NCBI GenBank assembly: GCA_964593535.1
Contig: CAZQHF010000002.1
Span: 1-36,921, forward strand
From: an uncultured Candidatus Saccharibacteria bacterium
Lineage (GTDB): Bacteria; Patescibacteriota; Dojkabacteria; SC72
Reading direction: 5' to 3'
DNA length: 36,921 bases
In this document: positions 10,330-24,370 of the stretch, piece after piece
How the letters are laid out: the number at the start of each line of letters is the position of its first letter
Position numbering within the stretch: the stretch's first letter is position 1
Program-made: the position numbers and the translations under genes
Notes under the pieces: model-generated
Database searches by the model: none
What the model was told of the DNA's origin: nothing
What the model saw: the letters and a program-made list of their open reading frames with translations, nothing else

Positions 10330-10366
10330 GAATCCTCTTGTATAAGGGGATTCTTCTTTTATATTT
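10330..10366 (+). terminator. Rho-independent terminator after the pilin gene
   Basis: GAATCCTC (10330-10337) pairs with GGGGATTC (10346-10353). This is an 8-bp stem with one G-U pair and an 8-nt loop, followed by TTCTTTTATATTT. Confidence 0.55.
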
Positions 10367-10390: not shown

Positions 10391-11155
10391 ATGCATATGT
10401 ATCTTACATTTATGATATTTCTACTTGGTCTTGTATTAGCAAGCTTTTTAAATGCACTACTATATAGAATAGATAATGAATATAAATATCCTGAAATATT
10501 TGTAAAAGGATCTCATTGTGAAAAGTGTGGGAAAATGCTTAAAGTATATGAACTTATACCAGTACTCTCGTATATAATATTTAAGGGGAGGTGTAGTAAA
10601 TGTGGTTATAGAATCCCAAAATATTATCCTATTTCAGAATTAGCATTAGGTATAGGAATGGGGAGTATATACTATTATTCACTCTCCACTATTCTGTATG
10701 TAGTGTTAGTATTCTTTTTTTGTTTTTCATATTTTGATCATATGTACAAAGAAATACCTAAAGAATTAGTAGATACATTCTTAATATTTTCAGTCATCTA
10801 TTTCTTTATGTCTACACTTTTAAATCATTCTATACCTGAAAATGCAGTAATTGGTGGAATTGTAATGTGTGTTTTTATACTTCTTATAGCTAAGGTGATG
10901 AAGAAACCCTTTGGAATGGGAGATATACTTGTACTATTAGGACTTAGCATGGTAGTTAATCTTGAATTATATTTAGGATACATATATATTTTTCTAATAT
11001 CTTCCGGCTTATATTCCATGTACATTGTTTTATTTAAAAAAGAAAAAAGAAAATCATCACTAGCATTACTTCCCTTTATGTTTCTTTCATTATCTATTAC
11101 TTTCCTCTTTTATCCATATCTTCTTGAATTTATTTCTAAAGTCTTTTACTTTTAA
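10391..11155 (+). CDS. pilD: Prepilin peptidase (A24 family), PilD
   Basis: 254 aa polytopic membrane protein. N-terminal CxxC...CxxC (CEKCGK...CSKCGY) and a GxGD-type active-site box (FGMGDILVL). The start could also be the third codon (ATG at 10397). Confidence 0.85.
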   Translation: MHMYLTFMIFLLGLVLASFLNALLYRIDNEYKYPEIFVKGSHCEKCGKMLKVYELIPVLSYIIFKGRCSKCGYRIPKYYPISELALGIGMGSIYYYSLSTILYVVLVFFFCFSYFDHMYKEIPKELVDTFLIFSVIYFFMSTLLNHSIPENAVIGGIVMCVFILLIAKVMKKPFGMGDILVLLGLSMVVNLELYLGYIYIFLISSGLYSMYIVLFKKEKRKSSLALLPFMFLSLSITFLFYPYLLEFISKVFYF

Positions 11156-11214: not shown

Positions 11215-12156
11215 ATGAGAAATACAGCTAAAAAACTTCAAGGATTTACTTTAATGGAGATGTTAATAGTTTTGTCTATAATTATAATCTTGTCAGCTGT
11301 TGGAATTAGTGGCTTTAATTCAATAAATGAAACATTTACTGCGAATGAAAATGCAGAATTAGTGAAACAGGATATAGAATCGGCAAGGCTTAAAGCGATG
11401 AATATGGGAAAAGAGAGTGAAGAAACTTGGGTGTATGGATTTGGTATAGATTTTAGAAATGCGGATTCAAGTAATGGAAGAAATGAAAATTATAGAATGT
11501 ATAAATGGTGTTCTCCTGTTAAGAATTTTGGGGACACTCTTACTTTGGGTGGAATCCCTTATGATCTTACAAGGGCTAAACTTCCTAATCTGTATTCTGG
11601 GTTTGATGTTAATGGAGATATTTCAAATGTAAATTTGTGTGGTACTTTTAATCAATATAAAAACGGAAGTATACCTGCATCATGTGGAAGTGAAAGCGAT
11701 GGGTATGTTGATAGGTGTTCAGAAAACAGTACAAATCTCTCTCTTATAAAAGGAGAGAATCTTTCACTTCTTAATAGATTTGATGGTCAAGTTGTTCTTC
11801 TCGATTTAAACGAAGAGAAGAATCCCCCTAGTTTCGTATTTTTTGAATCTCTTACTGGAAAAGCAATAATTTATGCGAGAGATGGGCAGGTCTTAAATTA
11901 TAAAAATGATGGGAGCTTTGATGCAGAGAATTTCTTGCCATTAGATATTATTCTTAGAAGAAAAAATAATAGTGATACATTTGATATGATAAGTGTATAT
12001 CCACTATCAGGTGAAATTATACATCATGTGTATGGATCTAGAGATAAAAAAGAGGATTCATCAGAATGTGGAGAGAATTTAAGCTGTTTTACTTTTGGTG
12101 GGAATACATATGAGAGATATGGAATAGATGATGAGATAAAATCGTACAGGGATTAA
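11215..12156 (+). CDS. Minor pilin / pseudopilin
   Basis: Prepilin signal KKLQG|FTLMEMLIVLSIIIIL with Glu at +5. 313 aa. Confidence 0.75.
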   Translation: MRNTAKKLQGFTLMEMLIVLSIIIILSAVGISGFNSINETFTANENAELVKQDIESARLKAMNMGKESEETWVYGFGIDFRNADSSNGRNENYRMYKWCSPVKNFGDTLTLGGIPYDLTRAKLPNLYSGFDVNGDISNVNLCGTFNQYKNGSIPASCGSESDGYVDRCSENSTNLSLIKGENLSLLNRFDGQVVLLDLNEEKNPPSFVFFESLTGKAIIYARDGQVLNYKNDGSFDAENFLPLDIILRRKNNSDTFDMISVYPLSGEIIHHVYGSRDKKEDSSECGENLSCFTFGGNTYERYGIDDEIKSYRD

Positions 12157-12164
12157 AGATATAA

Positions 12165-12731
12165 ATGAATAAAGATTTAAACAAAAAGTATAAAGGACTG
12201 GGGTTTGCGGAGACGCTTATTGCTATGATGATAGTTGGTATTGTAGGAATAGTATTAATGCAGATAGCATCAGATACACTTAGGGAATTGGCACAATTAG
12301 ATATAAAAGATGCGATTGCTAAACATGCAGTATCAACAGCTGTTGATTTACAAAGGATTGCGATAGAGGATATGAGTAGGGAAGGAGATGAGAAGGAATT
12401 CGAAAAACTTATTGCTAGTACAGTTATTTGCTATGGTATAAGTAGAGATGGGGCATCATTTGATGATAGATTATTTGATTGTCCATCAGAAAATAACAAT
12501 AATGGAGAAGGTTACAGACAGAATTATACAAGAATATATGAAGATAAAAATGGGGATGGATCTTTCGATGAGGATGAGAAGACACAGTATTTTAGAATAA
12601 TAAATGTTAAAGAAATAACTGACAGAAGAGCTGTTGTTGAAATAATTACAGGTGTTGCTAATATGAAAGGTTTAAATACTACAAATAAAGATATAAAAGA
12701 TTATAGATATTTAGCTGTTATTGCAAGATGA
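12165..12731 (+). CDS. Minor pilin-like protein
   Basis: N-terminus KKYKG|LGFAETLIAMMIVGIV has Glu at +5 if cleaved after KG. Its stop overlaps the next gene by 4 nt. Confidence 0.6.
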   Translation: MNKDLNKKYKGLGFAETLIAMMIVGIVGIVLMQIASDTLRELAQLDIKDAIAKHAVSTAVDLQRIAIEDMSREGDEKEFEKLIASTVICYGISRDGASFDDRLFDCPSENNNNGEGYRQNYTRIYEDKNGDGSFDEDEKTQYFRIINVKEITDRRAVVEIITGVANMKGLNTTNKDIKDYRYLAVIAR

Positions 12732-13435
12732 AAAAGGATAGAAGAACATATGAAGGATTTAGCTTAGTGGAAACACTATTTACCATAGTAATACTATCTA
12801 TGGTTATGCTTTTTGTTGCAAGTATGCTTAATACTGTTATTAAAACATCACATACAGCAAATAGTAAAAATATGGCAAGAAGCGATATTAATTATGTTAT
12901 GGATGTATATGATAGAACTCTAAGTAATGCTAAACTAGAAGATGTTAGAATGTATGATTCTTCTAATGTTAGAGAGTTTGGTTTTAATAGTGATGGGATT
13001 CCAGTTATACAACTAGCAGGAGGTTTATTGGGAAATACTTATGCAGAGGGAAATCCTGTCCCTGAAAATATTAATGAGATTCATGTTAGATTATATGGAT
13101 ATGATACATGGACATGTTTAGGTTATTTTAAGTATATAACTGGAGGAAATGAATATGGATTTATTGTTAAAGCTACATCAAATGATTTAAATGTTGATAA
13201 TCATGATACTTGCTTTGCCGAAGACTCCCCTATTACAATACTTCATTCCTATTCTGTTGATGTTTCAAAGTTTTCTATGCAGTTTATCGATATTGGTGAT
13301 GGTGTAAATAGTATATTTGTTATAGGTAGTGAGTTTACTCCATTGTATTGGCCTATGTCTAATTCTTTTAATCTTGTGGCTAAAGGTGTATCTAGGAAGG
13401 TGATAGTTTCTACGAGAGCATTGACAAGATACTAA
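12728..13435 (+). CDS. Minor pilin-like protein
   Basis: Prepilin signal RRTYEG|FSLVETLFTIVILSMV with Glu at +5. Confidence 0.7.
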   Translation: MKKDRRTYEGFSLVETLFTIVILSMVMLFVASMLNTVIKTSHTANSKNMARSDINYVMDVYDRTLSNAKLEDVRMYDSSNVREFGFNSDGIPVIQLAGGLLGNTYAEGNPVPENINEIHVRLYGYDTWTCLGYFKYITGGNEYGFIVKATSNDLNVDNHDTCFAEDSPITILHSYSVDVSKFSMQFIDIGDGVNSIFVIGSEFTPLYWPMSNSFNLVAKGVSRKVIVSTRALTRY

Positions 13436-13476: not shown

Positions 13477-14400
13477 ATGAAAAAATACTCAGGGCAAGCT
13501 ATAGCTATCATAATGGTTGTACTTGTTGTAGCTGCTGTGATTGGAGCATCTCTTTACTCTAGAATGATGAGAAATAAAGGGGAAGTTGTTGATACAAGAG
13601 AATCACAAAAGGCTTTAGAACAGGCAGGTAATGTTTTAGATGCTTTTACAACATCTGATCTTCCTTCTTTGCAGAAATTACTTAGTAAAGAATTAAGTGA
13701 GGATGATGATGGAGAAATAGTTTTAAGCAACATAGAAGTGATAAGGAATTTTTTGCAAAGCTTAAATGGTGATCAAATGGATTTAGGCTTACTAGGGCTG
13801 GGAGAAGGCGGTTCATGTTCTGAACCTGTTGTAACTATAGCATATGCTCAGGCTTCTGATGGGATAGAGTATGGTGTTGGTGATGTGATGGCAATTAATG
13901 TGGATGGTGTAAGTATTCCTGCTGGTTGTGTAGCAACTCTCACCTTCTATACTGCAGGGAGCGGAGATCATTTGTTTACAACAAAGTATGTGTATATGGA
14001 TAACGATGGGAATGTACAACCTTATAAACTTGAAGATATGGAGTTGTACTGTCTAAATAGCACTGGTGGTAATTGTGGAGAAGGAAGTGTAGCTCCAATA
14101 GAATCTATTGAAGGAACATTAGCCTCAGGAGGTAGTATTACTTTAAATTTTGCAGATTATTCTAATTTGTATGAATTTAGAATTCTTCCCTCGAAAGAAA
14201 AGATAAAGATTGGGTTACAGGGAAATGAGGCATGTAATCATCTTCTTGATAACTATTTTATAAAATCTACAGTTATATGTACTGGTCAGGAAAGAACTAT
14301 GCAGGTTGTAATACCAAATGCGATGAATATGGGGTATCCATCCCTTTTTGATTATACAATTTATAACTCTTCAGGGACTTTAACACCATATCATCACTAA
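13477..14400 (+). CDS. PilX-like pilus-associated protein with an N-terminal hydrophobic anchor and no Glu at +5
   Basis: MKKYSGQAIAIIMVVLVVAAVIGASLY is a pilin-like leader that lacks Glu at +5. Position is last in the minor-pilin run. Confidence 0.45.
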   Translation: MKKYSGQAIAIIMVVLVVAAVIGASLYSRMMRNKGEVVDTRESQKALEQAGNVLDAFTTSDLPSLQKLLSKELSEDDDGEIVLSNIEVIRNFLQSLNGDQMDLGLLGLGEGGSCSEPVVTIAYAQASDGIEYGVGDVMAINVDGVSIPAGCVATLTFYTAGSGDHLFTTKYVYMDNDGNVQPYKLEDMELYCLNSTGGNCGEGSVAPIESIEGTLASGGSITLNFADYSNLYEFRILPSKEKIKIGLQGNEACNHLLDNYFIKSTVICTGQERTMQVVIPNAMNMGYPSLFDYTIYNSSGTLTPYHH

Positions 14401-14424: not shown

Positions 14425-14808
14425 ATGGCAGATGTAAAAAAAATATTGATAGTAGAAGATGAAATACCTCTTTTAGATTCATATGCAGAATTAGTTGAAA
14501 CTGCAGGATATATTCCTTTAAAAGCTTCTGATGGATATCAGGCATTGGATACTTTGTCAAATAATTTTGATCAGATAGATCTTGTTCTTCTTGATTTAAT
14601 GATGCCAGGTGTAGATGGATTGGAAGTGCTTAAAACAATTAGAAATAATGAAGACAAGTATGGGAAAATGCCTATTGTTGTTCTAACCAATATGACAAGT
14701 GAGTCAGTTGTTAAAGAGGCTTTTGATTTAGGGGCTATATCATATCTTGTTAAAACAGATTTAGACTATGATGGATTAGTTAAGGAATTGTCTAAGTTTT
14801 TTGGATAG
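14425..14808 (+). CDS. Stand-alone response-regulator receiver domain (CheY/PilH-like)
   Basis: 127 aa. Acidic pocket EDE, phospho-acceptor context LVLLDLMMPGVDG, VVLTNMTS, YLVK. No output domain and no histidine kinase in the window. Confidence 0.85.
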   Translation: MADVKKILIVEDEIPLLDSYAELVETAGYIPLKASDGYQALDTLSNNFDQIDLVLLDLMMPGVDGLEVLKTIRNNEDKYGKMPIVVLTNMTSESVVKEAFDLGAISYLVKTDLDYDGLVKELSKFFG

Positions 14809-14928
14809 AATGTAAATTTGTTAACTGCTCTTAAGTGGGAAAAATACTGTATTATCAAAGAGTAAGCTTAGTCTTTATTTGGTTGGGATATCATATTACA
14901 ATCTATAGAGATGGGAGTTAAACCTTAA
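14809..14928 (+). pseudogene. Decayed 3'-terminal relic of a third paralog of the two large Cys-rich proteins
   Basis: In-frame translation gives NVNLLTALKWEKYCIIKE*A*SLFGWDIILQSIEMGVKP*. This aligns with the C-termini of the two paralogs: LLAIDLHPKYGILGEEFFGSKYIIQTVELGVKP* and VLVIDYHPKYGVIAEKFFGRQSTVKAVEIGVKP*. Two internal stop codons and no upstream body. Confidence 0.6.
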
Positions 14929-14953
14929 TATATAAATTAATATTAAAAGTGAT

Positions 14954-15967
14954 TTGAAGGAAACAGTCAGTAAAAAAAAAATTAATATTACCCTACTTGT
15001 TTTTCTGATTGTAATAATACTTTTCCTCTTTTCAGCTTTGTTTTATTTTGTAAAATTTCCGGAGAAAGAGAGTACTCTATCGACAAACCCATTCGGGGAA
15101 TTTGGCTTGGAGTATGATCAAACACCTTTGTTAGCTTGTTTTATTGGGATAGAAGGTTATAAAAACTTCTGTTTAAAGCCTGAAAACAAGGGTTTCTATC
15201 CTATGGATTTACTTGATGAACATCCTGAAATACAAGGATATCCTTCGGGTTTGTATATTCTAGAGTTGAAGGAGGACTCATTAAGGAGTTCTAAGGTAAA
15301 TGCAGATATCATTTTAGAGAAGTGGTATAAATATATTCTGTTAAACGAAGGTTCTTTCATAAGAGAAGTAGGAGAAAAAAAGACAATTGATTTGTATAAC
15401 CTGACACAACTAAGAATGATTCAGATGAAGAAAGGTGTTTATAGTGAAAGTGATATGATTGAGGAATTTACGAATTATTCTGAAGGAGAATATATACCCA
15501 CAAGCCCAATGAGATATTCTGATTTCTCATTCCTGTGTAGTATTGCACCAAAAATGTGTGTGTCCTTTAGCAATTTATACAAAATTCCGTTTCTTCATCT
15601 GAGAGAAATTAATCAAAATCCAGATTCTGACATTACTGATTTAGAATTAGTGTGGTCTAATTTAAAGATGCTAAATCTAGGGATAAATTCTTTAAATAAT
15701 AATTCCTTACAAAGTGAAGAGACATCTATAGAGTATGAGAAGTTTTTATCTAATGTTTTGAAAAATAATCAAGGTTTAACTAAAGAAGAAGCTCTTTTTA
15801 TTGGGGAGTATCTTCCCATTTGGCTTTTAGATTATGTGGATGTTTTGTATAAGAGTTGGGTTGGAGAATCTAAGGATTATTATATTGTTCTTCTAGATTC
15901 AGTTTGCAAAGAGTCACAATGTTTAGAGATTAAGTTAAATGTTCTTTATAATGAATTTAAGAATTAG
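14954..15967 (+). CDS. Hypothetical N-terminally membrane-anchored protein, first gene of the insert
   Basis: 337 aa with a TTG start. One TM span (ITLLVFLIVIILFLFSALFYFV) followed by a soluble domain. I recognise no family. Its 3' end overlaps the start of the next gene. Confidence 0.55.
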   Translation: MKETVSKKKINITLLVFLIVIILFLFSALFYFVKFPEKESTLSTNPFGEFGLEYDQTPLLACFIGIEGYKNFCLKPENKGFYPMDLLDEHPEIQGYPSGLYILELKEDSLRSSKVNADIILEKWYKYILLNEGSFIREVGEKKTIDLYNLTQLRMIQMKKGVYSESDMIEEFTNYSEGEYIPTSPMRYSDFSFLCSIAPKMCVSFSNLYKIPFLHLREINQNPDSDITDLELVWSNLKMLNLGINSLNNNSLQSEETSIEYEKFLSNVLKNNQGLTKEEALFIGEYLPIWLLDYVDVLYKSWVGESKDYYIVLLDSVCKESQCLEIKLNVLYNEFKN

Positions 15968-18773
15968 ATTATTAATTTTAATAACAGGTTTTTCAACTAT
16001 TATTTTATGTCTATCGATGACACAGATTAAGGCGGCATTACCGTATTGCGATACGGCTGTTAAAAAGTGTGTCATAGATTCTGGATGTTACCCTGAGGGG
16101 TGTATGGAGGCTTGTGTACAGGATTGTTTTGATACTGGACACTGTTCATATAACTTATCTCAATGCAGTACATCACCAGATAAATATTACCAAGATGGAA
16201 GTTGTTGCTGGGCTAAATATGGAGGCTCTTGTACGGAAGATTGTGATTGTACAGGTACTTGTTGTAATCCTGGTTGTACTCCTCCTGCTTGTTGGAATGG
16301 GACATCAACTTCCGATACGGGTGATTATTATGGTGCACAACAGTGTACTGATGATTGTGGCGATAAGGAGTATCGGAATTGTTATTGTAATATTTGTACT
16401 CCACCCTCTTGTTTAAGCAGTGGGTATAGTGATACAAATTTAGGATATGGGCAAGTTCCTCTTGCAAAGACTCCTTCCTGTAGAAATGGTTATAATGCTC
16501 CTGACTATATATCACAATGTGATATGACATACCGTACATGTTACTGTCCAAGCTGTTTAAAGCAATGTCCTTCACCATTAGCTAATACAGGGAGTGCTAA
16601 TTTAATATTAAATGATTTTAGAGAATGTACAAATGATTGTGATGTTAAACCACCAGAGGATCAGGATGATTGTTATGAGACAGAATCTTCTCAACCAACA
16701 GAAGTGCTTACAATAGTCAAAAATCCACTTGATTACACAAACCTTTATGGCTTTAGTAGTATTACTCATACAGGTGATAGACAAGTAGAGACTGCTAGGC
16801 TTGGAACATTAAATGATCCGTTTAATCCTCCAGTCAAAATGAAGGCCGAATATACAGATACAAACGGTTCAAGTGATATAGAGGGGCTGTTTGTATGGTT
16901 TAGAGAAAGTCAGTATACAGGAGAGCTAGGTACACCATTATATATCTCAGACATAGCAGAACCTACAGCATCAGCAAATGATAGTTGGGGATTTATGTTA
17001 AGAAGAATGGGGAGTGCCTGGCAACCATATGTACCTAGTTATAATGGGGGAAATGTATTTTGGACAAGAGAAGATACTAGCGGTAACATATTTTCAATAG
17101 ATGGGCCAAATGGGGGAAAGATGGTAGAGGTTACAATAATAGGAGATATTATAGAGACAGGTAATACAGTATCAATGGAATTTAGTTTAAGATTTTCTAA
17201 TAGTGATGGTGTGCTTTATGATGATCCTGTTGCAGAAGGTGAATATAACATATATTTAATGGGTTTAGACAAGTTTAGTTTTACACCATATGATAACTAT
17301 AATATAAACTATGGGGATTATTGGACACCTCAGTTTAAATATTCAGGATATACAGATTTATCTCCATTCTGGCAACCCAATCAGTTAAGATACAAGCCTG
17401 AACAGGGACAGACTTATGTAAGGAATTGGACTAATACTGGAAAAACATGGACAATTGATAGGAAATCTCCTACTTTAAATACAAATGTAACTGTCTCAGG
17501 GAATAGTATTACATTATCATGGGATGCTTCTGATGATAGGAACTTATATGCAATCGTTGGAAATATCTTTACATCTGGTGATGATGTAAAGACTATTACT
17601 GTAAGCACGGGAACAATAGGTGTTTCTCTTCATGACCCTACTACTTTCTCACTAAATTCAAAGGATAATGGGGTTGATGAAGATAAAATAGGAATACTGA
17701 ATAGAATGGATGTTTCTCTTTTTCAAGTTAATCCAAACATTAATGGGACAGAACATAGTGGAAGTGTAACATTAAATATAAATCATGAGGCACAGAACTC
17801 TCTCTACTTCTTTATTACCGTATTTGATGATGCAGGGAATATAGCTCAAAGTGAGGAAATAAAACAGGATCTTAATGATTGGATGGTAACATCGGGAGGA
17901 TTAGCTTACTCAGCAGGTGGTACATCTTTTACAGCAAAAGATGTAGCTGAGGGAATATGGAGTGGTACTCTTCCTCCAAGTAGTTATGGAAATAATCCAG
18001 GTTTAATTCCTCCTTATGTTAATTTTACAAGTGAGATGTGGGGAGAGACGGGTGGATTGATAAACTTTAAACCTAGTAGTCCTTTACATAGTTATAGCTT
18101 AATATTTAAGGGCATAAAGTCGGTAGAAGAAAATGGTTACTACACCCTACTTCTGGATTCATATGAGAAGAATAAAAAGAATTTAGGGGATAGTGTACAA
18201 GAGATAATGGATGTTATGACATTTTCTACTGCAGTTAGTAATTATTGTTCGAAGGAATATTGTGTTTTTAAGAGTACTGCTGATGTTCGTATAGATTCTA
18301 ACTTCGCATGTAATAAAAAGACATTAATGTTTATAGATCGAAGTTTGGAAATAAATCCACCATTAAAGAATTCAACAGGTACAGATACATTAAGTAGCAA
18401 GAATGGTTGTATATTTGTTGTGAGTGGTAATGTTAATATTACAGAAGGAAGTGATGCTGTAAATAGTGGTTTTGGATATGACAAAATGAATGGATACATA
18501 TTTGCAGATGGGCAGATTATTATAGAAGACGAATCTGATAAAAGAGCTCCTAATACAGATCCAATCATAGATGGTGTATATGTAAATGGAGGATTGCAAT
18601 CTTCAAAAAATGATGATAAGAGTATATTGTTTAATAGGTATTTAAGGTTAGAAGATAGGTTAAAGTTCCCATTGTTGGCAATAGATTTACATCCTAAATA
18701 TGGTATATTAGGAGAGGAGTTCTTTGGAAGTAAATATATAATACAAACAGTAGAATTAGGAGTTAAACCGTAA
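15939..18773 (+). CDS. Large secreted Cys-rich modular protein, paralog A
   Basis: 944 aa (940 if the start is ATG at 15951). Signal-peptide-like N-terminus ending IKA|ALPYC. Cys-rich region of roughly 200 aa, then a body of roughly 700 aa that is homologous along its length to the next gene. Ends ELGVKP*. Confidence 0.8.
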   Translation: MFFIMNLRIRLLILITGFSTIILCLSMTQIKAALPYCDTAVKKCVIDSGCYPEGCMEACVQDCFDTGHCSYNLSQCSTSPDKYYQDGSCCWAKYGGSCTEDCDCTGTCCNPGCTPPACWNGTSTSDTGDYYGAQQCTDDCGDKEYRNCYCNICTPPSCLSSGYSDTNLGYGQVPLAKTPSCRNGYNAPDYISQCDMTYRTCYCPSCLKQCPSPLANTGSANLILNDFRECTNDCDVKPPEDQDDCYETESSQPTEVLTIVKNPLDYTNLYGFSSITHTGDRQVETARLGTLNDPFNPPVKMKAEYTDTNGSSDIEGLFVWFRESQYTGELGTPLYISDIAEPTASANDSWGFMLRRMGSAWQPYVPSYNGGNVFWTREDTSGNIFSIDGPNGGKMVEVTIIGDIIETGNTVSMEFSLRFSNSDGVLYDDPVAEGEYNIYLMGLDKFSFTPYDNYNINYGDYWTPQFKYSGYTDLSPFWQPNQLRYKPEQGQTYVRNWTNTGKTWTIDRKSPTLNTNVTVSGNSITLSWDASDDRNLYAIVGNIFTSGDDVKTITVSTGTIGVSLHDPTTFSLNSKDNGVDEDKIGILNRMDVSLFQVNPNINGTEHSGSVTLNINHEAQNSLYFFITVFDDAGNIAQSEEIKQDLNDWMVTSGGLAYSAGGTSFTAKDVAEGIWSGTLPPSSYGNNPGLIPPYVNFTSEMWGETGGLINFKPSSPLHSYSLIFKGIKSVEENGYYTLLLDSYEKNKKNLGDSVQEIMDVMTFSTAVSNYCSKEYCVFKSTADVRIDSNFACNKKTLMFIDRSLEINPPLKNSTGTDTLSSKNGCIFVVSGNVNITEGSDAVNSGFGYDKMNGYIFADGQIIIEDESDKRAPNTDPIIDGVYVNGGLQSSKNDDKSILFNRYLRLEDRLKFPLLAIDLHPKYGILGEEFFGSKYIIQTVELGVKP
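16524..16680 (+). repeat. Near-identical 157-nt patch shared with 19609-19765 (copy in paralog A)
   Basis: By eye there are 4 mismatches in 157 nt, all at synonymous third-codon positions. Encodes MTYRTCYCPSCLKQCPSPLANTGSANLILNDFRECTNDCDVKPPEDQDDCYE. Confidence 0.85.
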
Positions 18774-18801
18774 TAGTAATTTTATTATAAATAATAAAAT
18801 A

Positions 18802-21800
18802 ATGAAAAGTTTAAAAGGATTTAAATTGCTTACTATTGTTACAATATTATTTTTTCTTTTTAGTTTTTTTAAATCTAATTTGTTTGCACAATATTGTACT
18901 TGTGATGGCGATGAGAGCATTTGTTATTCATCTTGTGAAGCATATACTAATTTGTCTGAATGTTCTGGATGTACAGGAATAGGCTATCCTTTCTGCTTTG
19001 GTAAAAATCCTAATGGTGTAGGTGTTTTGTGTTGTGATGAAAAAATGCAATACTCTTGTACCTGCGGTTGTAGTAATGGAATATGTAAGAGTTGTTCTTG
19101 TACACCTGCAACAAGTTGTAAGTGTGAACCACCATTTACAAATACCTATACTCCTCAATATGGTCAACCTAGAATAATTGATTGTAGTGACGGATGTGGT
19201 GGTACAATAAGTAGTCAATGTTGGTGTACTAGGGATTGTACTCTTCCTAGTTGTCCTGCTGGTACATCTTCAGATGGTACACATGGTACATATGGAGTAT
19301 ATGGATGTGCTAATGAGTGTGGGAAGTATTTAAATAGATCTTGTTATTGTGTCTCTGCATGTACACCAACCAGCTGTCCAACTGGAACAACAGAGACAAA
19401 CACAGGAGATTATTATTCTTCATATGATTGTACAAATGCTTGTAGTGAATCTCAAAGTAGAAACTGTTATTGTAGTATTTGTACTCCAGCCTCTTGTTCA
19501 AGTAGTGGGTATAGTGATACAGATTTAGGATATGGGCAAGTTCCTCCTGAAAAGGCTCCTTCATGTAGAAATGGAGAAGGAGCACCTGAACAGCTATCAA
19601 AATGTAACATGACATACCGTACATGTTACTGTCCAAGCTGTTTAAAGCAATGTCCTTCACCATTAGCTAATACAGGAAGTGCCAATTTAATATTAAATGA
19701 TTTTAGAGAATGTACAAATGATTGTGATGTTAAGCCCCCAGAGGATCAGGATGATTGTTATGAGATACCATCAGATCAACCAACAGAAAGTTTAGTTATA
19801 AATGGGGAAGAAGCAAATCCTAATGACTTTGGATTTTTAAGTCTAACACATACTGGAGATAATAAGAATATACCAATGCAAGGAGATTTAAATGATCCAT
19901 TATCTCCGATAAGAATGGAGGCAGAATACCGAGATGAAAATGGTGTAGGTGATATTGAAGGGTTGTTTGTATGGTTTAGGGAGCAAAAATATTCAGGAGA
20001 ATTAGAAACACCAGTATACCTTTTAGAAAAGGCTTTGTCAAAAGCATCAGCCAATGATGCTTGGGGATTTATGTTAAGGCGTGATGGGTCAGGATGGGAG
20101 GCTTATGTTCCAAGTTACGAAGGTACAAGTATGTATTGGACAAAGGTTACATCACTTAATACTCCGGATATATATATGACATTCTTTATATTAGGCCCTA
20201 ATGGAAAAGAAATGATACAAGTTATAATTCCAACAAAACCAGAGGAAGCAAGTACTGATGGAAAAAGTTTAATAATGGTGTTTGATTTGCGTTTTTCTGA
20301 TGAAGAAGGTAATTTGTTTGAAGATCCTGTCGCAGAGGGGAAATATAATATATATTTAATGGGGTTAGACAAGTTTAGTTTTACACCGTACGACAACTAT
20401 AATATAGATTATCTAAATTTCTGGAGTGAGAATTTTAAGTATTATGGATATGTTAATTTCTCTTCATATTGGGAACGTAATCAACTTAGATATAAAGAGG
20501 GAATACAAAATTATGCAAGAGATTGGAGTTATACAGGACAGACGTGGACTATTGATAGAACAGGACCATATATAGAAACATTTGCATTCGGGACTCCTAA
20601 TGATAACAAATTAGAAGTACACTGGGATGTTAGGGATGATAGAAATTTGTATGCAGTTGTAGGAAATATATATACAACGGGAGGAGCATTCTCTAGACCT
20701 ATAGAGTTGCTTTCTAATGATTCTGTCAATCAAATAGCATTACTTGACCCAGGGTCGGTTTTGACATTTCATAATCCTAACCCATTTATTCCAAACTCCG
20801 TTACAGAAGCTCATGATATAGGAAAAATTAATGGGGATTGGGCTTTTAAAATTGGTCCTGATTCATTAGTCTCATCAAGCAGCCATTCTATATATATAGA
20901 TGTGGGGGAAAATACAACTGGTTTGTTTGATATCCATCTTACTGTATTTGATGATGCAGGTAATTTTTCTACATCGAAGATAAGTGTAAATATAGCAGAT
21001 TGGTTTGCAACTGCAGGAGGATTAGCCTACTCTGCAGAGGGAACATATTTTTCTACGAAAAATTTTGTAAATACAACAGAAGAACCATCATTGCCATATC
21101 CTTCAGAGAATCCTGGGTTACAGTTTGGAAATTCTGATTATTCAAGTGAGCTATGGGCAGAAAAAAATAATGAAAGCCCTGCTCCTTTGGAGAGGAGTAA
21201 TGAAACAAAGAGCTATAACATTACTAGATATCTTGGTTGTAAATTAACAGAAGGGTATTATGATTACTTGAAGAAGGAATATGAGATGAACAAAAAGAAT
21301 ATTGATAATTTAGAAGAGGTATCGCCTGAATCACCAGATCTTTCTGGTTCTCTTAGTAGTATATGTAATAGCCAGCCGTATTGTATGTTTGAATATACTG
21401 GAGATCTTAATGTAAGAGGTGATGTAATTTGTGATAACAGATCCTTAATATTTGTTGGACGGGATCTAACCATTGAAACACCATTAAAGAATACAAATGA
21501 TAATCAATTAAGTAATAAAAACGGATGTATATTTGTTGTTAGACGTGATGTAACTGTACAGAAGGGGAAAAATATGTCTTCTACAGATTTCGGGTATGAT
21601 ATAGTTCATGGATATATACTGGCTGATGGAGTAATAACTATAGATGATGAAAGACCTAAAGATGGGATTATTGATGGTGTATATATTAATGGAGGATTAA
21701 GTTCTTCATATAAAGAGGGTGTTGGTATTGTAATTAATAGATATTTAAGAGTTGAAGAAAAGCTTACATATCCAGTATTAGTAATAGATTATCATCCTAA

Positions 21801-21876
21801 ATATGGAGTAATAGCAGAAAAATTCTTTGGAAGACAAAGTACAGTAAAAGCAGTTGAAATTGGTGTTAAGCCATAA
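18802..21876 (+). CDS. Large secreted Cys-rich modular protein, paralog B
   Basis: 1024 aa. Signal peptide MKSLKGFKLLTIVTILFFLFSFFKSNLFA|Q. Longer Cys-rich region with five recognisable modules. Shares blocks with A: GLFVWFRE, WGFMLRR, DPVAEGxYNIYLMGLDKFSFTPYDNYNI, TWTIDR, DDRNLYAxVGNI, TVFDDAGN, GGLAYSA, KNGCIFVV, IDGVYxNGGL, HPKYG, GVKP*. Confidence 0.8.
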   Translation: MKSLKGFKLLTIVTILFFLFSFFKSNLFAQYCTCDGDESICYSSCEAYTNLSECSGCTGIGYPFCFGKNPNGVGVLCCDEKMQYSCTCGCSNGICKSCSCTPATSCKCEPPFTNTYTPQYGQPRIIDCSDGCGGTISSQCWCTRDCTLPSCPAGTSSDGTHGTYGVYGCANECGKYLNRSCYCVSACTPTSCPTGTTETNTGDYYSSYDCTNACSESQSRNCYCSICTPASCSSSGYSDTDLGYGQVPPEKAPSCRNGEGAPEQLSKCNMTYRTCYCPSCLKQCPSPLANTGSANLILNDFRECTNDCDVKPPEDQDDCYEIPSDQPTESLVINGEEANPNDFGFLSLTHTGDNKNIPMQGDLNDPLSPIRMEAEYRDENGVGDIEGLFVWFREQKYSGELETPVYLLEKALSKASANDAWGFMLRRDGSGWEAYVPSYEGTSMYWTKVTSLNTPDIYMTFFILGPNGKEMIQVIIPTKPEEASTDGKSLIMVFDLRFSDEEGNLFEDPVAEGKYNIYLMGLDKFSFTPYDNYNIDYLNFWSENFKYYGYVNFSSYWERNQLRYKEGIQNYARDWSYTGQTWTIDRTGPYIETFAFGTPNDNKLEVHWDVRDDRNLYAVVGNIYTTGGAFSRPIELLSNDSVNQIALLDPGSVLTFHNPNPFIPNSVTEAHDIGKINGDWAFKIGPDSLVSSSSHSIYIDVGENTTGLFDIHLTVFDDAGNFSTSKISVNIADWFATAGGLAYSAEGTYFSTKNFVNTTEEPSLPYPSENPGLQFGNSDYSSELWAEKNNESPAPLERSNETKSYNITRYLGCKLTEGYYDYLKKEYEMNKKNIDNLEEVSPESPDLSGSLSSICNSQPYCMFEYTGDLNVRGDVICDNRSLIFVGRDLTIETPLKNTNDNQLSNKNGCIFVVRRDVTVQKGKNMSSTDFGYDIVHGYILADGVITIDDERPKDGIIDGVYINGGLSSSYKEGVGIVINRYLRVEEKLTYPVLVIDYHPKYGVIAEKFFGRQSTVKAVEIGVKP
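19609..19765 (+). repeat. Near-identical 157-nt patch shared with 16524-16680 (copy in paralog B)
   Basis: Same alignment as the copy in A. Flanking sequence on both sides is much more diverged. Confidence 0.85.
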
Positions 21877-21946: not shown

Positions 21947-22975
21947 ATGGCAAAGTTACCAGATCATGTGGGTGTAGATTTCGGAACACATACTGTAAAA
22001 GCTGTAGAATTAAAGAATATTCTCTCAACGCCTGAGCTTGTAAATCTTGGGATGCAGATTACACCAAAAGGAGTCATTAACAGTGAAGAAAGACAAGACC
22101 AGAAAAAATTGGCAGAAGCATTAAAAAAGCTTTACGATAGTGCTAAGATTAAAAATCCATATGTGGTAATGGCATTACCAGAATTTTCTGTATTTACAAG
22201 ATTTTTAGAATTTCCAGGAGTAAAGGAAGAGGAATTAAAAAATGCTGTATATTATGAAGCTAAACAGTATCTTCCTGTATCTGTTGATGAAGTTCAGATG
22301 AGTTATGTAACTATTGGTTTTAATGAGGAGAAGAATGCCCCAAGGGTTCTACTTGTTGCAGCTCCAAAGAAAATAATTAGTATATATATGAATGTAGCCA
22401 GTTTTGCTAATCTTGATCTTATTGCAATTGAAACAGAGTCTGTTGCTATGGGAAGAGCAATGTATAGGGCTATGAAGAAGAAAGATTGTGTTACATTAGA
22501 TTTTGGTGCAAATAGTACTGATATGTGTATTATGACAAACGGAGCACTGGTCTTTTCTCAAAGTATTCCCATTGGATCTGATTCACTAACTCAAGCAATT
22601 GTAAATAAATTCAATTTTGATTATAACAGGGCGGAAGAATTTAAAAGAGCATATGGTCTTATACCTAATGCTTTAGAAGGGAAAATATATAGTGCATTAC
22701 TCCCTATTGTTGAATCTATAATGATTGAAGTTAGAAGAGGTATTGAATTTTATAAAAATAAAACAATGAGTCCTGCACCTATGGAGTATCTTCTTAATGG
22801 AGATGGTGCTCTTCTTCCAGGATTAACGGAGTATGTATCGAAATCACTAGGAGTTAGTGCACAGATAGCAAATCCATGGTTAAATATATCAATAGATAAT
22901 AGATTTAAAAATATAATTTCAAAAACAGGAGGTTCCTACTCTATTGCAGTAGGTTTGGCACTAAAAGATGAATAA
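21947..22975 (+). CDS. pilM: Type IV pilus assembly protein PilM (actin-like ATPase fold)
   Basis: 342 aa. N-terminal VGVDFGTHTVKAVEL phosphate-1-like motif. Directly followed by pilN, which overlaps it by 8 nt. Confidence 0.85.
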   Translation: MAKLPDHVGVDFGTHTVKAVELKNILSTPELVNLGMQITPKGVINSEERQDQKKLAEALKKLYDSAKIKNPYVVMALPEFSVFTRFLEFPGVKEEELKNAVYYEAKQYLPVSVDEVQMSYVTIGFNEEKNAPRVLLVAAPKKIISIYMNVASFANLDLIAIETESVAMGRAMYRAMKKKDCVTLDFGANSTDMCIMTNGALVFSQSIPIGSDSLTQAIVNKFNFDYNRAEEFKRAYGLIPNALEGKIYSALLPIVESIMIEVRRGIEFYKNKTMSPAPMEYLLNGDGALLPGLTEYVSKSLGVSAQIANPWLNISIDNRFKNIISKTGGSYSIAVGLALKDE

Positions 22976-23678
22976 TAATTTACAAAATCAAACAGTTAGT
23001 GATATTAACAATAATAGTATTCCTAATCAACAGGTACCTCCATCAGCTGGTCAAGTTAATATGCAACCACCAGTACAAGGCTCTCCAACACTAGCAGAAC
23101 CTATTGTTGCACAAATCAAAGAAGGGAAAGAAGGTGTTAATCTTATTCCCTCTCGTACAAAAGAAGAAGAAGTTCAAGTTAAGAAAAAAACAACATTAAG
23201 TATTGGCTCTCTTTTAGCAATAATTGTTTTAGTATTAGTTTCTATTGGTATAGTAGGATTTAACATTATTACTAAAAATCAACTTAGTGATAAAAAGAAA
23301 GAACTTACCGATATGGAGTATATTGTTAATCAAAAAGCTGATAAGATAGTTGCGAATAATGTTATTTTGGATAGAATTAATCTGTATAAAGATGTTAAAG
23401 CTAATAGTTTTTCACACAAAAAAGTTATTACTTTTCTAAGGGAAATGGCAGGTAAAATACAGGGTATTACATATGATAGTATGGAGATATCAGAAGATTT
23501 ATCTTTTAAAATATCTGGAGATGCACCCAATTTAGAGCAGCTTTCTCGTATGTGGTATCTTTGGGGTGTAAATGAAAATATAGAGACAATAAAACTAAAG
23601 TCATTTTCTAAAACAGAAACAGGAGCGACTTTTTCTTTTGATGGTAAATTAGTTTTAGATAACTTTAAAGCTGATTAA
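22968..23678 (+). CDS. pilN: PilN-like bitopic pilus alignment protein with an N-terminal Q/N/P-rich extension
   Basis: The VNLIPS motif (compare the PilN INLLP PilM-binding peptide) is followed by one TM span (LSIGSLLAIIVLVLVSIGIVGF). The motif is preceded by about 55 low-complexity residues. Confidence 0.65.
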   Translation: MNNNLQNQTVSDINNNSIPNQQVPPSAGQVNMQPPVQGSPTLAEPIVAQIKEGKEGVNLIPSRTKEEEVQVKKKTTLSIGSLLAIIVLVLVSIGIVGFNIITKNQLSDKKKELTDMEYIVNQKADKIVANNVILDRINLYKDVKANSFSHKKVITFLREMAGKIQGITYDSMEISEDLSFKISGDAPNLEQLSRMWYLWGVNENIETIKLKSFSKTETGATFSFDGKLVLDNFKAD

Positions 23679-23680
23679 TT

Positions 23681-24370
23681 ATGGCACTTGTTACTTCACA
23701 AACTGAAAAAAAGAAAAAAGCAGAGTTACAAAAAGTAGTTGAAAAGAGAGGGAGCAAGAAGTTAACTATCTCTGACCTTATAATCCCAATTGCATCTTCA
23801 ATAGTACTTCTTGTCCTTTGTTTTGCAGTATTTATCCCAATGGTAAGATCAGCCTTTGAATATATGGATGAAATGAAAGAGATTGATCAAAAGATTGAAC
23901 AGTTGGATAAACTAAATAAGCAGCTTGATCAATTAGATGAGAGTCAATTAAGTGATGATGTACTGACTTCAAGAACTGTTGTTCCTAACACTTTGCTTGT
24001 TTCAGACTTAGTATATTACATAGATAATTTAGCAAAATCTTTAAATCTCCAGATTTCTAAGCTCTCTTCTGCAGATTCTTTAAATTCAGTATCAGGTCCT
24101 CTTGGATATGAAGGAGAATATACTAATGTAATAGATTTTTTGGATAAAGCACAAAATGTATCTCCATATATGATAAGACTAGAAAATGTAAAGTTATCAA
24201 GAAAAAATAAAAACGATGGAAAAGATAATTGGTCTATTGATATGATAGTAAGTGGTTATTATATATCTGATACTAAAGAAGAACCAAGTATTTACAGCGA
24301 TTTCCAGCCATATACAGAGCAGAGCGATGTTCTTGAAATATTTAGAGAAAAAGCAAAGAGTACTCTTTAA
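23681..24370 (+). CDS. pilO: PilO-like bitopic pilus alignment protein
   Basis: One TM span (IIPIASSIVLLVLCFAVFIPMV), a coiled-coil-like segment (MKEIDQKIEQLDKLNKQLDQLDE), and position after pilN. Confidence 0.5.
   Translation: MALVTSQTEKKKKAELQKVVEKRGSKKLTISDLIIPIASSIVLLVLCFAVFIPMVRSAFEYMDEMKEIDQKIEQLDKLNKQLDQLDESQLSDDVLTSRTVVPNTLLVSDLVYYIDNLAKSLNLQISKLSSADSLNSVSGPLGYEGEYTNVIDFLDKAQNVSPYMIRLENVKLSRKNKNDGKDNWSIDMIVSGYYISDTKEEPSIYSDFQPYTEQSDVLEIFREKAKSTL

What the first reader, a model, noticed from the sequence alone, without database searches (positions are those of the whole stretch)
14809..21876. A ~7-kb module of Cys-rich giant secreted paralogs splits a secretin-less type IV pilus locus
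The pilus genes are otherwise contiguous: pilB-pilT-pilC-pilin-pilD-minor pilins, then pilM-pilN-pilO.

Between the minor pilins with their CheY-like gene and pilM lie four elements:
- a gene relic (14809-14928);
- a membrane-anchored protein of unknown family (14954-15967);
- two tandem paralogs of 944 and 1024 aa, each with a signal peptide.

Each paralog has an extremely Cys-rich modular N-terminus, a long body with no motif I recognise, and a conserved C-terminal block: KNGCIFVV...IDGVYxNGGL...NRYLRxE...HPKYG...GVKP*.

The membrane protein's 3' end overlaps the start of paralog A, and the A-to-B spacer is 28 nt. This suggests a single transcription unit.

In proteobacterial pilus loci, the large gene next to the minor pilins is the tip adhesin PilY1. 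By position and size these proteins could be a non-homologous functional analog, such as pilus-presented or pilus-dependent adhesins or host-contact factors. If the organism is an episymbiont, that role would be central to its lifestyle.
Basis: partly seen in the sequence, partly recalled or inferred. Interest (0 to 1): 0.85.

Follow-up and report, generated by a model that had tools for sequence, protein, structure and literature searches.

The report
Fast-evolving secreted adhesin-like genes in pilus operon
Inside the type IV pilus operon of an uncultured ultra-small bacterium (Candidatus Dojkabacteria) sit two large, fast-evolving secreted proteins of an undescribed family with variable cysteine-rich tips, which are the best candidates so far for how these bacteria grip a partner cell or surface.

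Summary
Window 14809-21876 holds a deletion scar, a membrane-anchored 337-aa protein ("M"), and two tandem paralogs, A (944 aa) and B (1024 aa). They lie between the minor pilins/CheY-like gene and pilMNO.

- **No known family.** A and B match nothing in Pfam, NCBIfam, PADLOC or PDB sequences.
- **Predicted architecture.** Signal peptide, a length-variable Cys-rich head, beta-sandwich/Ig-like stalk domains, a flexible linker, then a conserved C-terminal beta-solenoid with a flanking helix. The tail is conserved to the last residue (...E-x-G-x-K-P).
- **Synteny.** The family is detected almost only in Dojkabacteria. All 32 close-subfamily loci with an informative flank place it in the pilus locus, 18 of them with both REC and pilM in view. 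One distant relative (PilM 56% identical) does too.
- **Divergent members.** Some sit elsewhere, one beside only a copy of the fourth, GspK/PilX-like minor pilin.
- **Turnover.** Copy number is 1-3. The "relic" is the scar of a ~3.3-kb deletion. Heads and M are swapped between strains whose PilM is 98.5% identical. Longer relatives carry vWA, lectin, CBM60 or InlB-repeat modules in the variable part.

Best reading: modular adhesins tied to the pilus, analogous to PilY1 but not homologous. Tip location is unproven.

The parts
13477..14400 (+). Fourth pilin-like protein (mp4). It has an N-terminal hydrophobic segment (SGQAIAIIMVVL) with no Glu5 and no N_methyl match, so it looks GspK/PilX-like. 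It is the pilus gene most consistently found beside family members.
   Evidence: One search found no PF07963 hit. One search found 42-52% identity to the gene at the same position in other loci. Searches found mp4 homologs next to divergent family members in L039, L040 and L050 (jackhmmer E 5e-79), outside the main pil locus.
14425..14808 (+). Stand-alone CheY-like receiver (REC) gene that always precedes the module.
   Evidence: PF00072 E 4.4e-22. 72-90% identity at the same position in the Dojkabacteria loci that show it, and 48% in the distant L049.
14835..14870 (+). Deletion scar, left half. These are the first 12 codons (GTG; VGKNTVLSKSKL) of the lost small membrane-protein gene 'S'.
   Evidence: Window 14714-14870 aligns to L008 1-158 at 94% nt identity. 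The L008 S protein starts VEKNTVSSKSKL.
14871..14928 (+). Deletion scar, right half. These are the last ~19 codons and the stop of a lost third paralog ('big1'), out of frame with the S remnant.
   Evidence: Window 14871-15030 aligns to L009 3064-3221 at 88%, and 14871-14988 to L008 3447-3562. The translation ends ...LFGWDIILQSIEMGVKP*. About 3.3 kb (L008 159-3446) is missing.
14954..15967 (+). Partner protein M, sequence type a. It has an N-terminal membrane anchor and a ~300-aa outside domain with 5-6 conserved Cys. Its 3' end overlaps the start of A.
   Evidence: ORF. Homologs at the same position in L005, L012, L015 and L016 (31-39% identity). No Pfam, NCBIfam, PADLOC or PDB match.
15030..16376 (+). 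Strain-variable block, comprising the body of M plus residues 1-146 of A. It has no nucleotide similarity to the closest strain although both flanks are 84-91% identical.
   Evidence: blastn against L009. tblastn by segment.
15939..18773 (+). Paralog A, 944 aa. Residues 1-28 form the signal peptide (15939-16022). Residues 29-250 form the Cys-rich head (16023-16688). Residues 251-660 form the beta-sandwich/Ig-like stalk (16689-17918). Residues 661-724 form a low-confidence linker, below pLDDT 50 at 697-728 (17919-18110). Residues 725-935 form the helix plus beta-solenoid (18111-18743). Residues 936-944 form the conserved tail (18744-18770).
   Evidence: AF2 model, mean pLDDT 76.9. C-terminal domain modelled alone, pLDDT 83.2 and pTM 0.84. 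Foldseek searches. Conservation by domain.
16377..16676 (+). Likely gene-conversion tract shared with B (19462-19761). It covers the last Cys-rich module.
   Evidence: 91% nt identity against ~70% or less elsewhere. Synonymous third-position identity is 0.83-0.96 against mostly 0.5-0.7 elsewhere, with a few small-sample outliers. Mismatches are not adenine-specific.
18802..21876 (+). Paralog B, 1024 aa. Same architecture as A, with a longer Cys-rich head (324 aa, 44 Cys) and no partner gene of its own.
   Evidence: The third paralog of L008 is 70-80% identical to B outside the N-terminal 100 residues (44%).
21947..24370 (+). pilM, pilN-like and pilO, which follow B after a 70-nt spacer.
   Evidence: PilM_2 E 3.8e-49. 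PilO E 1.2e-3 (19.5 bits, below the 22-bit cut-off). pilN is assigned by position only. No terminator-like site lies between REC and pilM.

Best explanation
A and B are Sec-exported, extracellular, modular adhesin-like proteins that form an integral, ancestral part of the Dojkabacteria type IV pilus operon.

**Proposed mechanism**
- The variable Cys-rich N-terminal head recognises a target, probably a glycan or protein on a partner cell or surface.
- The beta-sandwich/Ig-like domains act as a stalk.
- The conserved C-terminal beta-solenoid docks the protein to a conserved partner. Its tail is predicted disordered yet is conserved to the last residue.
- That partner is most likely the minor-pilin priming complex, and in particular the GspK/PilX-like fourth minor pilin. 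Docking there would present the protein on or with the pilus. This is what PilY1 does in proteobacteria, achieved here with a different fold.
- The upstream membrane-anchored partner genes (M here, S for the lost paralog) are probably cognate chaperones or holders for particular head types.

**Shown**
- The gene content and the predicted domain layout.
- The synteny.
- The rapid turnover: deletion, conversion, head/M swapping and copy number 1-3.
- Adhesion modules in relatives.

**Inferred**
- Export and extracellular location.
- The adhesin function.
- Docking to mp4 or the pilus.
- The role of M.
For: **1. Operon embedding**
- The genes share one strand, with a 29-nt overlap, a 28-nt spacer and a 70-nt spacer. 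No terminator-like site lies between REC and pilM.

**2. Synteny**
- 18 loci show the family between REC and pilM with both flanks visible. Another 14 show the one visible flank as expected. The close subfamily has no exception.
- The order is kept in L049, where PilM is only 56% identical.

**3. Specific link to mp4**
- In L050 a partner-plus-family-member cassette lies beside an mp4 homolog, with no other pil gene within 10 kb.
- mp4 homologs also flank members in L039 and L040.

**4. Adhesin-like architecture**
- The body gives Ig-like/adhesin Foldseek matches: integrin legs, SiiE, Als, ClfA and AgI/II.
- The variable part of 37 long relatives carries Flg_new/InlB repeats, vWA, ConA-like lectin/pentraxin, CBM60 and a GH130-like domain.

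**5. Variable head, conserved C-terminus**
- The head ranges from 172 to 521 aa with 19-52 Cys. The body is a constant ~700 aa.
- Many of the 598 remote representatives share only the C-terminal ~440 aa, always at the protein's end.
- The tail Q..E.G.KP* is conserved but has pLDDT below 50. That is typical of a docking peptide.

**6. Diversifying turnover, window against L009/L008**

| Protein or region | Identity |
|---|---|
| PilM | 98.5% |
| PilO | 96% |
| PilN | 89% |
| A/B bodies and C-terminal domains | 47-92% (the low values from L009, whose big genes are fragmented) |
| Heads | 36-45%, or no hit |
| M | unalignable |

- The ~3.3-kb deletion scar and the conversion tract add to this picture.
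Against: - There is no experimental or structural evidence that the proteins contact pilins. No multimer prediction could be run.
- Six of ten divergent family members examined have no pil gene within 10 kb. The family can therefore work without pilus-gene linkage.
- The partner proteins S and M are membrane-anchored. They could themselves tether the big proteins to the cell surface, making the pilus unnecessary.
- The C-terminal fold match to ice-binding-type solenoids is weak (TM 0.35-0.42, E 0.04 or higher). The match to the Thermus tip pilin ComZ is not significant (probability 0.2).
- A and B themselves carry no recognised binding module.
- Adjacency of M and the A head means their co-variation may be simple linkage. 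One locus (L001) has a type-a-like head without M.
Confidence: 0.5

Rival explanations
1. A and B are pilus-independent surface adhesins or envelope proteins. They are held on the cell by the membrane-anchored partner proteins (S/M) or by the wall. They share the operon only so that they are co-expressed with pili, for example as close-range adhesins that engage after pilus retraction.
For: - Partner genes with N-terminal anchors immediately precede most copies, often with overlapping start and stop.
- Divergent cassettes made of small membrane proteins plus a big protein exist away from pil genes.
- A multistep model with separate close-range adhesins has been proposed for Saccharibacteria (PMC11623550).
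Against: - B, and the A-like and B-like genes of L008, have no partner gene of their own.
- M co-varies with the N-terminal head, not with the conserved C-terminal domain that would be expected to be the anchor.
- The position between REC and pilM is strictly retained down to 56% PilM identity.
- The stand-alone pairing with an mp4 homolog in L050 is hard to explain by co-regulation alone.
Confidence: 0.27
2. The proteins are structural parts of the pilus machine in a single-membrane cell with an S-layer. They might form an envelope conduit or collar that stands in for the missing secretin.
For: - They sit directly upstream of pilMNO in a secretin-less system.
- They have a conserved C-terminal ~440 aa.
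Against: - Copy number varies from 1 to 3, and one paralog is deleted here with no sign of other decay in the operon.
- Heads are hypervariable and carry lectin, vWA or CBM insertions.
- Some members lie outside pil loci.
- No oligomeric ring-type fold was predicted.
Confidence: 0.07
3. The variable head plus the adjacent co-varying partner gene form a polymorphic effector and cognate-protector pair, with the head as a delivered toxin or effector and M as its immunity or inhibitor.
For: - The partner gene type co-varies with the head type: M-a 5/5, M-b 6/6.
- The block has been exchanged between near-identical strains.
- Both features are hallmarks of polymorphic toxin loci.
Against: - The polarity is reversed relative to known polymorphic toxins, because the variable end is N-terminal and the partner is upstream.
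- No toxin or immunity family hit was found in Pfam, NCBIfam or PADLOC.
- M is a 330-aa extracytoplasmic membrane protein.
- B and many other copies lack a partner gene.
- Heads in relatives are binding modules, not enzymes.
Confidence: 0.05

Closest known systems
PilY1 / PilC tip-associated adhesins of type IVa pili (Pseudomonas, Neisseria, Myxococcus; Pfam PF05567)
   Same: - A large (~1000 aa) non-pilin protein with an ordinary signal peptide.
- Encoded with the four core minor pilins.
- A variable N-terminal adhesion region and a conserved C-terminal domain. Two relatives here (P0141, P0145) carry a vWA domain in that region; P. aeruginosa PilY1 is described as having an N-terminal vWA domain (own knowledge).
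- Often present in several paralogs.
   Different: - No sequence similarity, and no PF05567 hit.
- The C-terminal domain is predicted as a beta-solenoid with a flanking helix, not a seven-bladed propeller.
- The heads are disulfide-rich modules.
- Dedicated membrane-anchored partner genes (S/M) accompany the copies.
- The host has one membrane and no secretin.
Large accessory-domain minor pilins of Saccharibacteria (TM7x PilX1 with a jelly-roll domain, PilX2 with a beta-propeller; PMC11623550 / PMC12206443)
   Same: - Also Patescibacteria.
- Large proteins in the pilus locus, without a canonical prepilin signal, proposed as tip adhesins.
- Deletion of pilX2 reduces host binding.
   Different: - Those are described as pilin-like lollipop proteins with an added C-terminal domain.
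- A and B have no pilin N-terminus, and their variable part is N-terminal.
- No homology was detected.
Modular type IV pilins of Streptococcus sanguinis (PilB with a vWA module, PilC with a lectin module; PMC8179133)
   Same: A single-membrane bacterium whose pilus presents grafted adhesion modules (vWA, lectin).
   Different: There the module is fused to a true pilin that polymerises into the filament. Here the adhesin is a separate, non-pilin secreted protein.
Thermus thermophilus ComZ (PDB 6qvi), a tip-located competence pilin with a large beta-solenoid
   Same: A beta-solenoid domain associated with a pilus tip. It appears in the Foldseek list for the C-terminal domain (rank 16).
   Different: The match is not significant (probability 0.2, TM 0.27). 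ComZ is a pilin with the solenoid inserted into it.
DUF3494 / type-1 ice-binding-protein fold (PDB 9lhs, 5uyt, 5b5h, 6bg8)
   Same: The best structural match of the conserved C-terminal domain. Both are a beta-solenoid packed against one long helix (probability up to 0.99).
   Different: - E 0.04 or higher, and TM 0.35-0.42.
- No sequence-profile match.
- The helix is N-terminal here.
- No reason to expect ice binding.

Membership tests
PilY1/PilC (PF05567) | C-terminal PilY1/PilC beta-propeller domain detectable by sequence profile | tested here: not met
   No Pfam hit for A, B or any of 40 family members. No PDB sequence hit.
PilY1/PilC (PF05567) | Seven-bladed propeller fold of the conserved C-terminal domain | tested here: not met
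   The AF2 model of the C-terminal 223 aa (pLDDT 83.2) is a helix plus beta-solenoid. The best Foldseek hits are ice-binding-type solenoids, and no propeller appears in the list.
PilY1/PilC (PF05567) | Non-pilin protein with a Sec signal peptide, encoded next to the core minor pilins | tested here: met
   Gene order mp1-mp4, REC, module. The N-terminal hydrophobic helix has no N_methyl motif. Signal-peptide cleavage is inferred only.
PilY1/PilC (PF05567) | Physical association with the minor-pilin tip complex, and a requirement for it in pilus function | not testable with these tools
   This needs multimer prediction or experiments.
Type IV pilins, including modular pilins | Class III signal peptide (G|F-x-x-x-E) followed by a hydrophobic N-terminal helix (PF07963/TIGR02532) | tested here: not met
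   A and B have no PF07963 or TIGR02532 hit, while the neighbouring pilins do. The N-termini are not conserved across the family.
DUF3494 ice-binding-like domain | Sequence-profile match to the family | tested here: not met
   No Pfam hit at E of 0.01 or lower in 40 members.
DUF3494 ice-binding-like domain | Beta-solenoid with a flanking long helix (fold level) | tested here: inconclusive
   Foldseek E 0.04-0.3, probability up to 0.99, but TM only 0.35-0.42.
Sortase-anchored Gram-positive adhesins (MSCRAMM type) | C-terminal LPXTG-like motif followed by a hydrophobic segment and a basic tail | tested here: not met
   The proteins end ...VELGVKP and ...VEIGVKP with no hydrophobic segment. The Ig-like stalk resemblance is at fold level only.
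Polymorphic toxin / immunity cassettes | Variable C-terminal toxin domain with a cognate immunity gene immediately downstream | tested here: not met
   The variable end is N-terminal and the partner is upstream. No toxin, immunity or defence family hit was found.
Diversity-generating retroelement targets | Template/variable repeat pair differing at adenines, with a nearby reverse transcriptase | tested here: not met
   The 28 mismatches of the 300-nt A/B repeat are spread over all base classes. No RT was found among the window ORFs scanned.

The most novel reading that the evidence does not exclude
The family, together with its cognate membrane partners, is a previously unrecognised host-recognition system of Dojkabacteria. 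In this reading the conserved C-terminal solenoid and tail plug into the GspK/PilX-like minor pilin to place the protein at the pilus tip. The head-plus-partner cassettes are exchanged between strains as specificity alleles that set which host or surface the cell can attach to. That would make this a non-homologous reinvention of PilY1 with a built-in allele-swapping mechanism.
Probability: 0.25. Interest if true: 0.8.

Novelty: new variant of a known kind. Interest (0 to 1): 0.62.

Why it matters
All cultivated Patescibacteria live attached to other microbes. Their type IV pili are implicated in host binding, but the molecules that set specificity are mostly unknown. Dojkabacteria have no cultured member that I know of (own knowledge, not checked here).

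- **Candidates for experiment.** This locus offers concrete specificity determinants. They are an undescribed protein family fixed in the pilus operon, with a conserved docking end and a fast-changing, recombining, Cys-rich binding end. Relatives replace or extend that end with vWA, lectin and carbohydrate-binding modules.
- **A second solution to a known problem.** If the pilus link holds, it shows another way to hang a large adhesin on a type IV pilus.
- **A marker for metagenomics.** Head and partner type could be followed in metagenomes as a marker of strain-level host range.
- **A practical caution.** The module is a hot spot of deletion, conversion and paralog collapse. It is therefore likely to be mis-assembled or fragmented in MAGs, as in L009.

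Tried and rejected
- **Family searches.** Pfam, NCBIfam and PADLOC scans of A, B and M gave no significant family, nor did a Pfam scan of 40 family members.
- **PDB sequence-profile searches.** The C-terminal domain gave nothing. The M-a family gave only a marginal hemolysin hit at E 0.015.
- **Foldseek on the full-length model.** Both PDB and viral libraries returned only generic Ig/FN3-like hits, with TM about 0.1.
- **Word-indexed homolog searches.** The search with M returned only M itself. The search with the C-terminal profile returned mainly fragments, plus one marginal Daviesbacteria hit. Neither was informative about range.
- **Taxonomy of remote representatives.** Cluster look-up returned no names.
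- **DGR hypothesis for the A/B repeat.** Rejected, because the mismatches are not adenine-specific and no RT is present.
- **Prepilin signal in B.** The 'KGF' near B's N-terminus has no Glu5, is not conserved in the family and gives no N_methyl hit. It was rejected as a prepilin signal.
- **Promoter and terminator scan.** Counts equal the shuffled expectation. The scan supports only the absence of an obvious terminator inside the module.

Full report
**1. What is in the window**

The window is low-GC (~32%). On the + strand it carries, in order:

| Gene | Coordinates | Family support |
|---|---|---|
| pilB | 5145-6947 | Pfam above cut-off |
| pilT | 6960-8405 | Pfam above cut-off |
| pilC | 8410-9651 | Pfam above cut-off |
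| major pilin | 9703-10305 | N_methyl above cut-off |
| pilD | 10391-11155 | Pfam above cut-off |
| minor pilins 1 and 3 | 11215-12156, 12728-13435 | N_methyl above cut-off |
| minor pilin 2 | 12165-12731 | N_methyl below cut-off (15.5 vs 21.2 bits) |
| fourth pilin-like protein (mp4) | 13477-14400 | none; no Glu5 |
| CheY-like receiver (REC) | 14425-14808 | Pfam above cut-off |
| reported module | 14809-21876 | none |
| pilM | 21947-22975 | Pfam above cut-off |
| pilN-like | 22968-23678 | none; assigned by position |
| pilO | 23681-24370 | below cut-off (19.5 vs 22 bits) |

No secretin domain was found in any window ORF scanned. The nearest public sequences are MAGs labelled Candidatus Dojkabacteria (WS6). 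PilM is 98.5% identical to L008 and L009.

**2. Check of the observation**

- All coordinates hold. M is 14954-15967 (337 aa), A is 15939-18773 (944 aa) and B is 18802-21876 (1024 aa).
- M overlaps A by 29 nt. A and B are 28 nt apart, and B and pilM are 70 nt apart.
- A and B are 49% identical over 871 aa.
- The Cys-rich part is confined to the N-terminal 250 residues of A and 324 residues of B. Those parts hold 33 and 44 Cys, against 4-5 in the remaining ~700 residues.
- The head contains tandem ~41-residue six-Cys modules of the form C-T-P-x-S-C...G-x-Y...C-x3-C...R-x-C-Y-C. Their number differs between A and B (direct reading).

**3. The relic is a deletion scar**

- Window 14714-14870 aligns at 94% to the end of REC plus the first codons of a small membrane-protein gene (S) in L008.
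- From 14871 the window jumps to the last ~58 nt of the paralog that follows S in L008 and L009. Identity there is 76% to L008 and 88% to L009.
- About 3.3 kb has therefore been lost. That span held S and almost all of a third paralog, big1.
- What remains is 12 S codons (14835-14870) fused out of frame to the last 19 codons of big1 (14871-14928...IEMGVKP*).

**4. Canonical module and its variation**

- Across 50 fetched loci the usual order is REC, S, big1, M, big2, pilM. S is a membrane-anchored protein of ~180 aa, or 490-570 aa in some lineages. big1 is ~30% identical to A and B. M is a membrane-anchored protein of ~330 aa that overlaps the next start. big2 is 37-46% identical to A and B.
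- Copy number is 1 in L007 and 2 in most loci. It is 3 in L008, L009 and L029.
- In the window's clade the ancestral set was S-big1-(M)-A-B. The window lost S-big1.

**5.

- I searched one genome per species (GTDB) with the C-terminal profile. This gave 40 loci. Nearly all are titled Dojkabacteria/WS6 or are loosely labelled TPA bins.
- 18 loci show both REC upstream and pilM downstream of the family. Another 14 show the one flank that the contig end allows. The close subfamily has no counter-example.
- A much more distant genome, L049 (PilM 56% and REC 48% identical), keeps the order REC, 388-aa membrane partner (overlapping), 1028-aa member, pilMNO.
- Members whose C-terminal domain is 30% identical or less behave differently. 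Six of ten have no pil gene within 10 kb. They occur as cassettes of two small membrane proteins plus an ~830-aa protein, sometimes in tandem, or as giants of 1683-1978 aa.
- Two further divergent members lie next to an inverted pilMNO (L044, L045). Two follow an mp4 homolog (L039, L040).
- In L050 a partner-plus-member cassette is followed directly by an mp4 homolog (jackhmmer E 5e-79), with no other pil gene nearby.
- The recurring companion is thus the GspK/PilX-like minor pilin, not the motor genes.

**6. Structure**

- AF2 on a 40-sequence alignment gave mean pLDDT 76.9. Predicted elements along A:

| Residues | Element | Confidence |
|---|---|---|
| 4-28 | N-terminal helix (signal peptide) | - |
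| 29-109 | first head segment | low (pLDDT below 50 for 28-109) |
| 110-250 | Cys-rich modules | pLDDT ~80-90 |
| 250-460 and 495-660 | beta-sandwich / Ig-like domains | pLDDT mostly 85-95 |
| 661-724 | linker | low, below 50 at 697-728 |
| 725-752 plus 753-935 | long helix packed on a beta-solenoid | pLDDT mostly 75-95 |

- Foldseek on the whole model returned only generic Ig-like adhesin or stalk matches. These include integrin alpha legs, SiiE, Als, ClfA and AgI/II C123, with TM about 0.1. Viral FN3/Ig proteins matched similarly.
- The C-terminal domain modelled alone (pLDDT 83.2, pTM 0.84) best matches DUF3494-type ice-binding solenoids. The figures are E 0.04-0.3, probability up to 0.99 and TM 0.35-0.42. 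Thermus ComZ is far down the list. I treat the fold assignment as inconclusive.
- The last nine residues are predicted disordered (pLDDT below 50). Yet they are among the best-conserved positions of the family, with E939 invariant and G941, K943 and P944 nearly so. That pattern suggests a docking peptide.

**7. Family range and head repertoire**

- A full HMM scan of 1.84 billion representative proteins found 598 clusters at E of 1e-3 or lower, and 213 at 1e-30 or lower. Many match only profile positions ~527-970, and that stretch always lies at the protein's C-terminal end.
- Among 37 long members the variable part carries the following:

| Module | Members |
|---|---|
| Flg_new (InlB-type repeats) | 6 |
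| Flg_new_2 (divergent InlB B-repeat) | 4 |
| Gly_rich_2 | 4 |
| vWA (P0141, P0145) | 2 |
| GH130-like | 2 |
| ConA-like lectin / pentraxin | 1 |
| CBM60 | 1 |
| DUF2341 | 1 |
| polysaccharide-lyase-like | 1 |

- This is the signature of a modular adhesin with a constant attachment end.

**8. Evolutionary dynamics**

- Against L008 and L009, PilM, PilO and PilN are 98.5%, 96% and 89% identical.
- A and B bodies and C-terminal domains are mostly 62-92% identical. The lower values (46-47%) come from L009, whose big genes are fragmented.
- The heads are 36-45% identical or undetectable.
- M is unalignable beyond its membrane anchor.
- At nucleotide level the window and L009 are 84-91% identical on both sides of a block (~15030-16376) that shows no similarity.
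- M proteins fall into at least three unrelated sequence types. Type a always precedes heads starting A-[YL]-P-Y-C (5/5). Type b precedes heads of the form Y-x-C-x2-G-x-Y-C...G-x-W (6/6). Type c precedes a third kind of head.
- This pairing cuts across relatedness of the rest of the protein. The window's C-terminal domain is closest to that of L007, which has M-b.
- It could reflect a functional pair or merely physical linkage. L001 has a type-a-like head without M.
- Within the window, A 16377-16676 and B 19462-19761 are 91% identical. Synonymous third-position identity there is 0.83-0.96, against mostly 0.5-0.7 elsewhere with a few small-sample outliers. This indicates gene conversion. The mismatch spectrum excludes a DGR.

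**9. Interpretation**

- The evidence supports exported, rapidly diversifying, adhesin-like proteins that are an ancestral component of the Dojkabacteria pilus operon.
- The most economical mechanism is PilY1-like. A conserved C-terminal domain and tail dock onto the minor-pilin priming complex, and the variable head binds the target. The recurrent neighbour mp4 is the likely docking point.
- Membership in the PilY1 family is excluded on both sequence and fold, so this is analogy only.
- The main rival is surface anchoring through S/M, independent of the pilus. It is not excluded and I give it about 0.27.
- A structural conduit role and an effector/immunity role are unlikely.

**10. Literature**

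- Full-text searches found no description of this family.
- The closest published concept is the accessory-domain minor pilins PilX1 and PilX2 of Saccharibacteria TM7x, proposed as tip adhesins (PMC11623550).
- A second is the modular pilins of S. sanguinis (PMC8179133, seen only in the search listing).
- The absence of PilQ in CPR and the enrichment of disulfide-forming enzymes there are noted in PMC6744442. The latter fits extracellular Cys-rich heads.

**11. Verdict**

I classify the finding as a new, non-homologous variant of the pilus-associated large-adhesin theme, with an unusual partner-gene and head cassette dynamic. Confidence is about 0.5 in the pilus-linked adhesin mechanism and about 0.3 for true tip location.

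Noticed in passing
window 14425-14808: A stand-alone CheY-like receiver gene sits at a fixed position between the fourth pilin-like gene and the module. It is 72-90% identical in the Dojkabacteria loci that show it and 48% in the distant L049. No kinase is seen in the window.
   Followed up: partly
window 6960-8405 and 22968-23678: PilT (481 aa) has a ~120-residue low-complexity N-terminal extension rich in Q, P, T, S and N before the ATPase domain (Pfam match starts at residue 132). The PilN-like protein has a similar ~60-residue Q/P/N-rich N-terminus.
   Followed up: no
window 10330-10353: A strong terminator-like hairpin (10-bp stem plus a T-run) lies directly after the major pilin gene. 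It is the only convincing one in the pilus operon.
   Followed up: no
L041 3948-10645, L042 3665-10465, L043 6959-10513, L044 7067-10474: Divergent relatives form cassettes of two small membrane proteins (~150 and ~140 aa) plus an ~800-860-aa Cys-rich protein ending ...REFGL. Some are duplicated in tandem. In L041-L043 no pil gene lies within 10 kb, while the L044 cassette lies near an inverted pilMNO.
   Followed up: partly
L046 4529-10465, L047 4532-10465, L048 269-5320: Giant relatives of 1683-1978 aa carry the same C-terminal domain. At least one (L047) is preceded by a ~150-aa membrane protein.
   Followed up: no
L050 8400-15005: In a 760-kb contig, a 534-aa membrane partner, a 1325-aa family member and an mp4-like minor-pilin homolog form an isolated trio among housekeeping genes.
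   Followed up: partly
L009 364-10873: In the closest MAG (PilM 98.5% identical) all three big genes appear broken into several ORFs. They are either pseudogenes or assembly and frameshift errors in the paralogous repeats.
   Followed up: no
L014 (JBPOHM010000203.1, 3.3 kb): A contig labelled 'Bacillota bacterium' carries family members 70-83% identical to A and B. It is probably a mis-binned Dojkabacteria fragment.
   Followed up: no
L016, L021, L022, L024, L025, L029, L032 (S genes of 488-573 aa): In some lineages the small S protein is extended by ~400 residues of unknown function.
   Followed up: no
window 29195-29599, 30642-31169, 32379-33167: Three ORFs downstream of the pilus locus have no Pfam match. 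The first (134 aa, next to clpB) is conserved in position in related loci.
   Followed up: no
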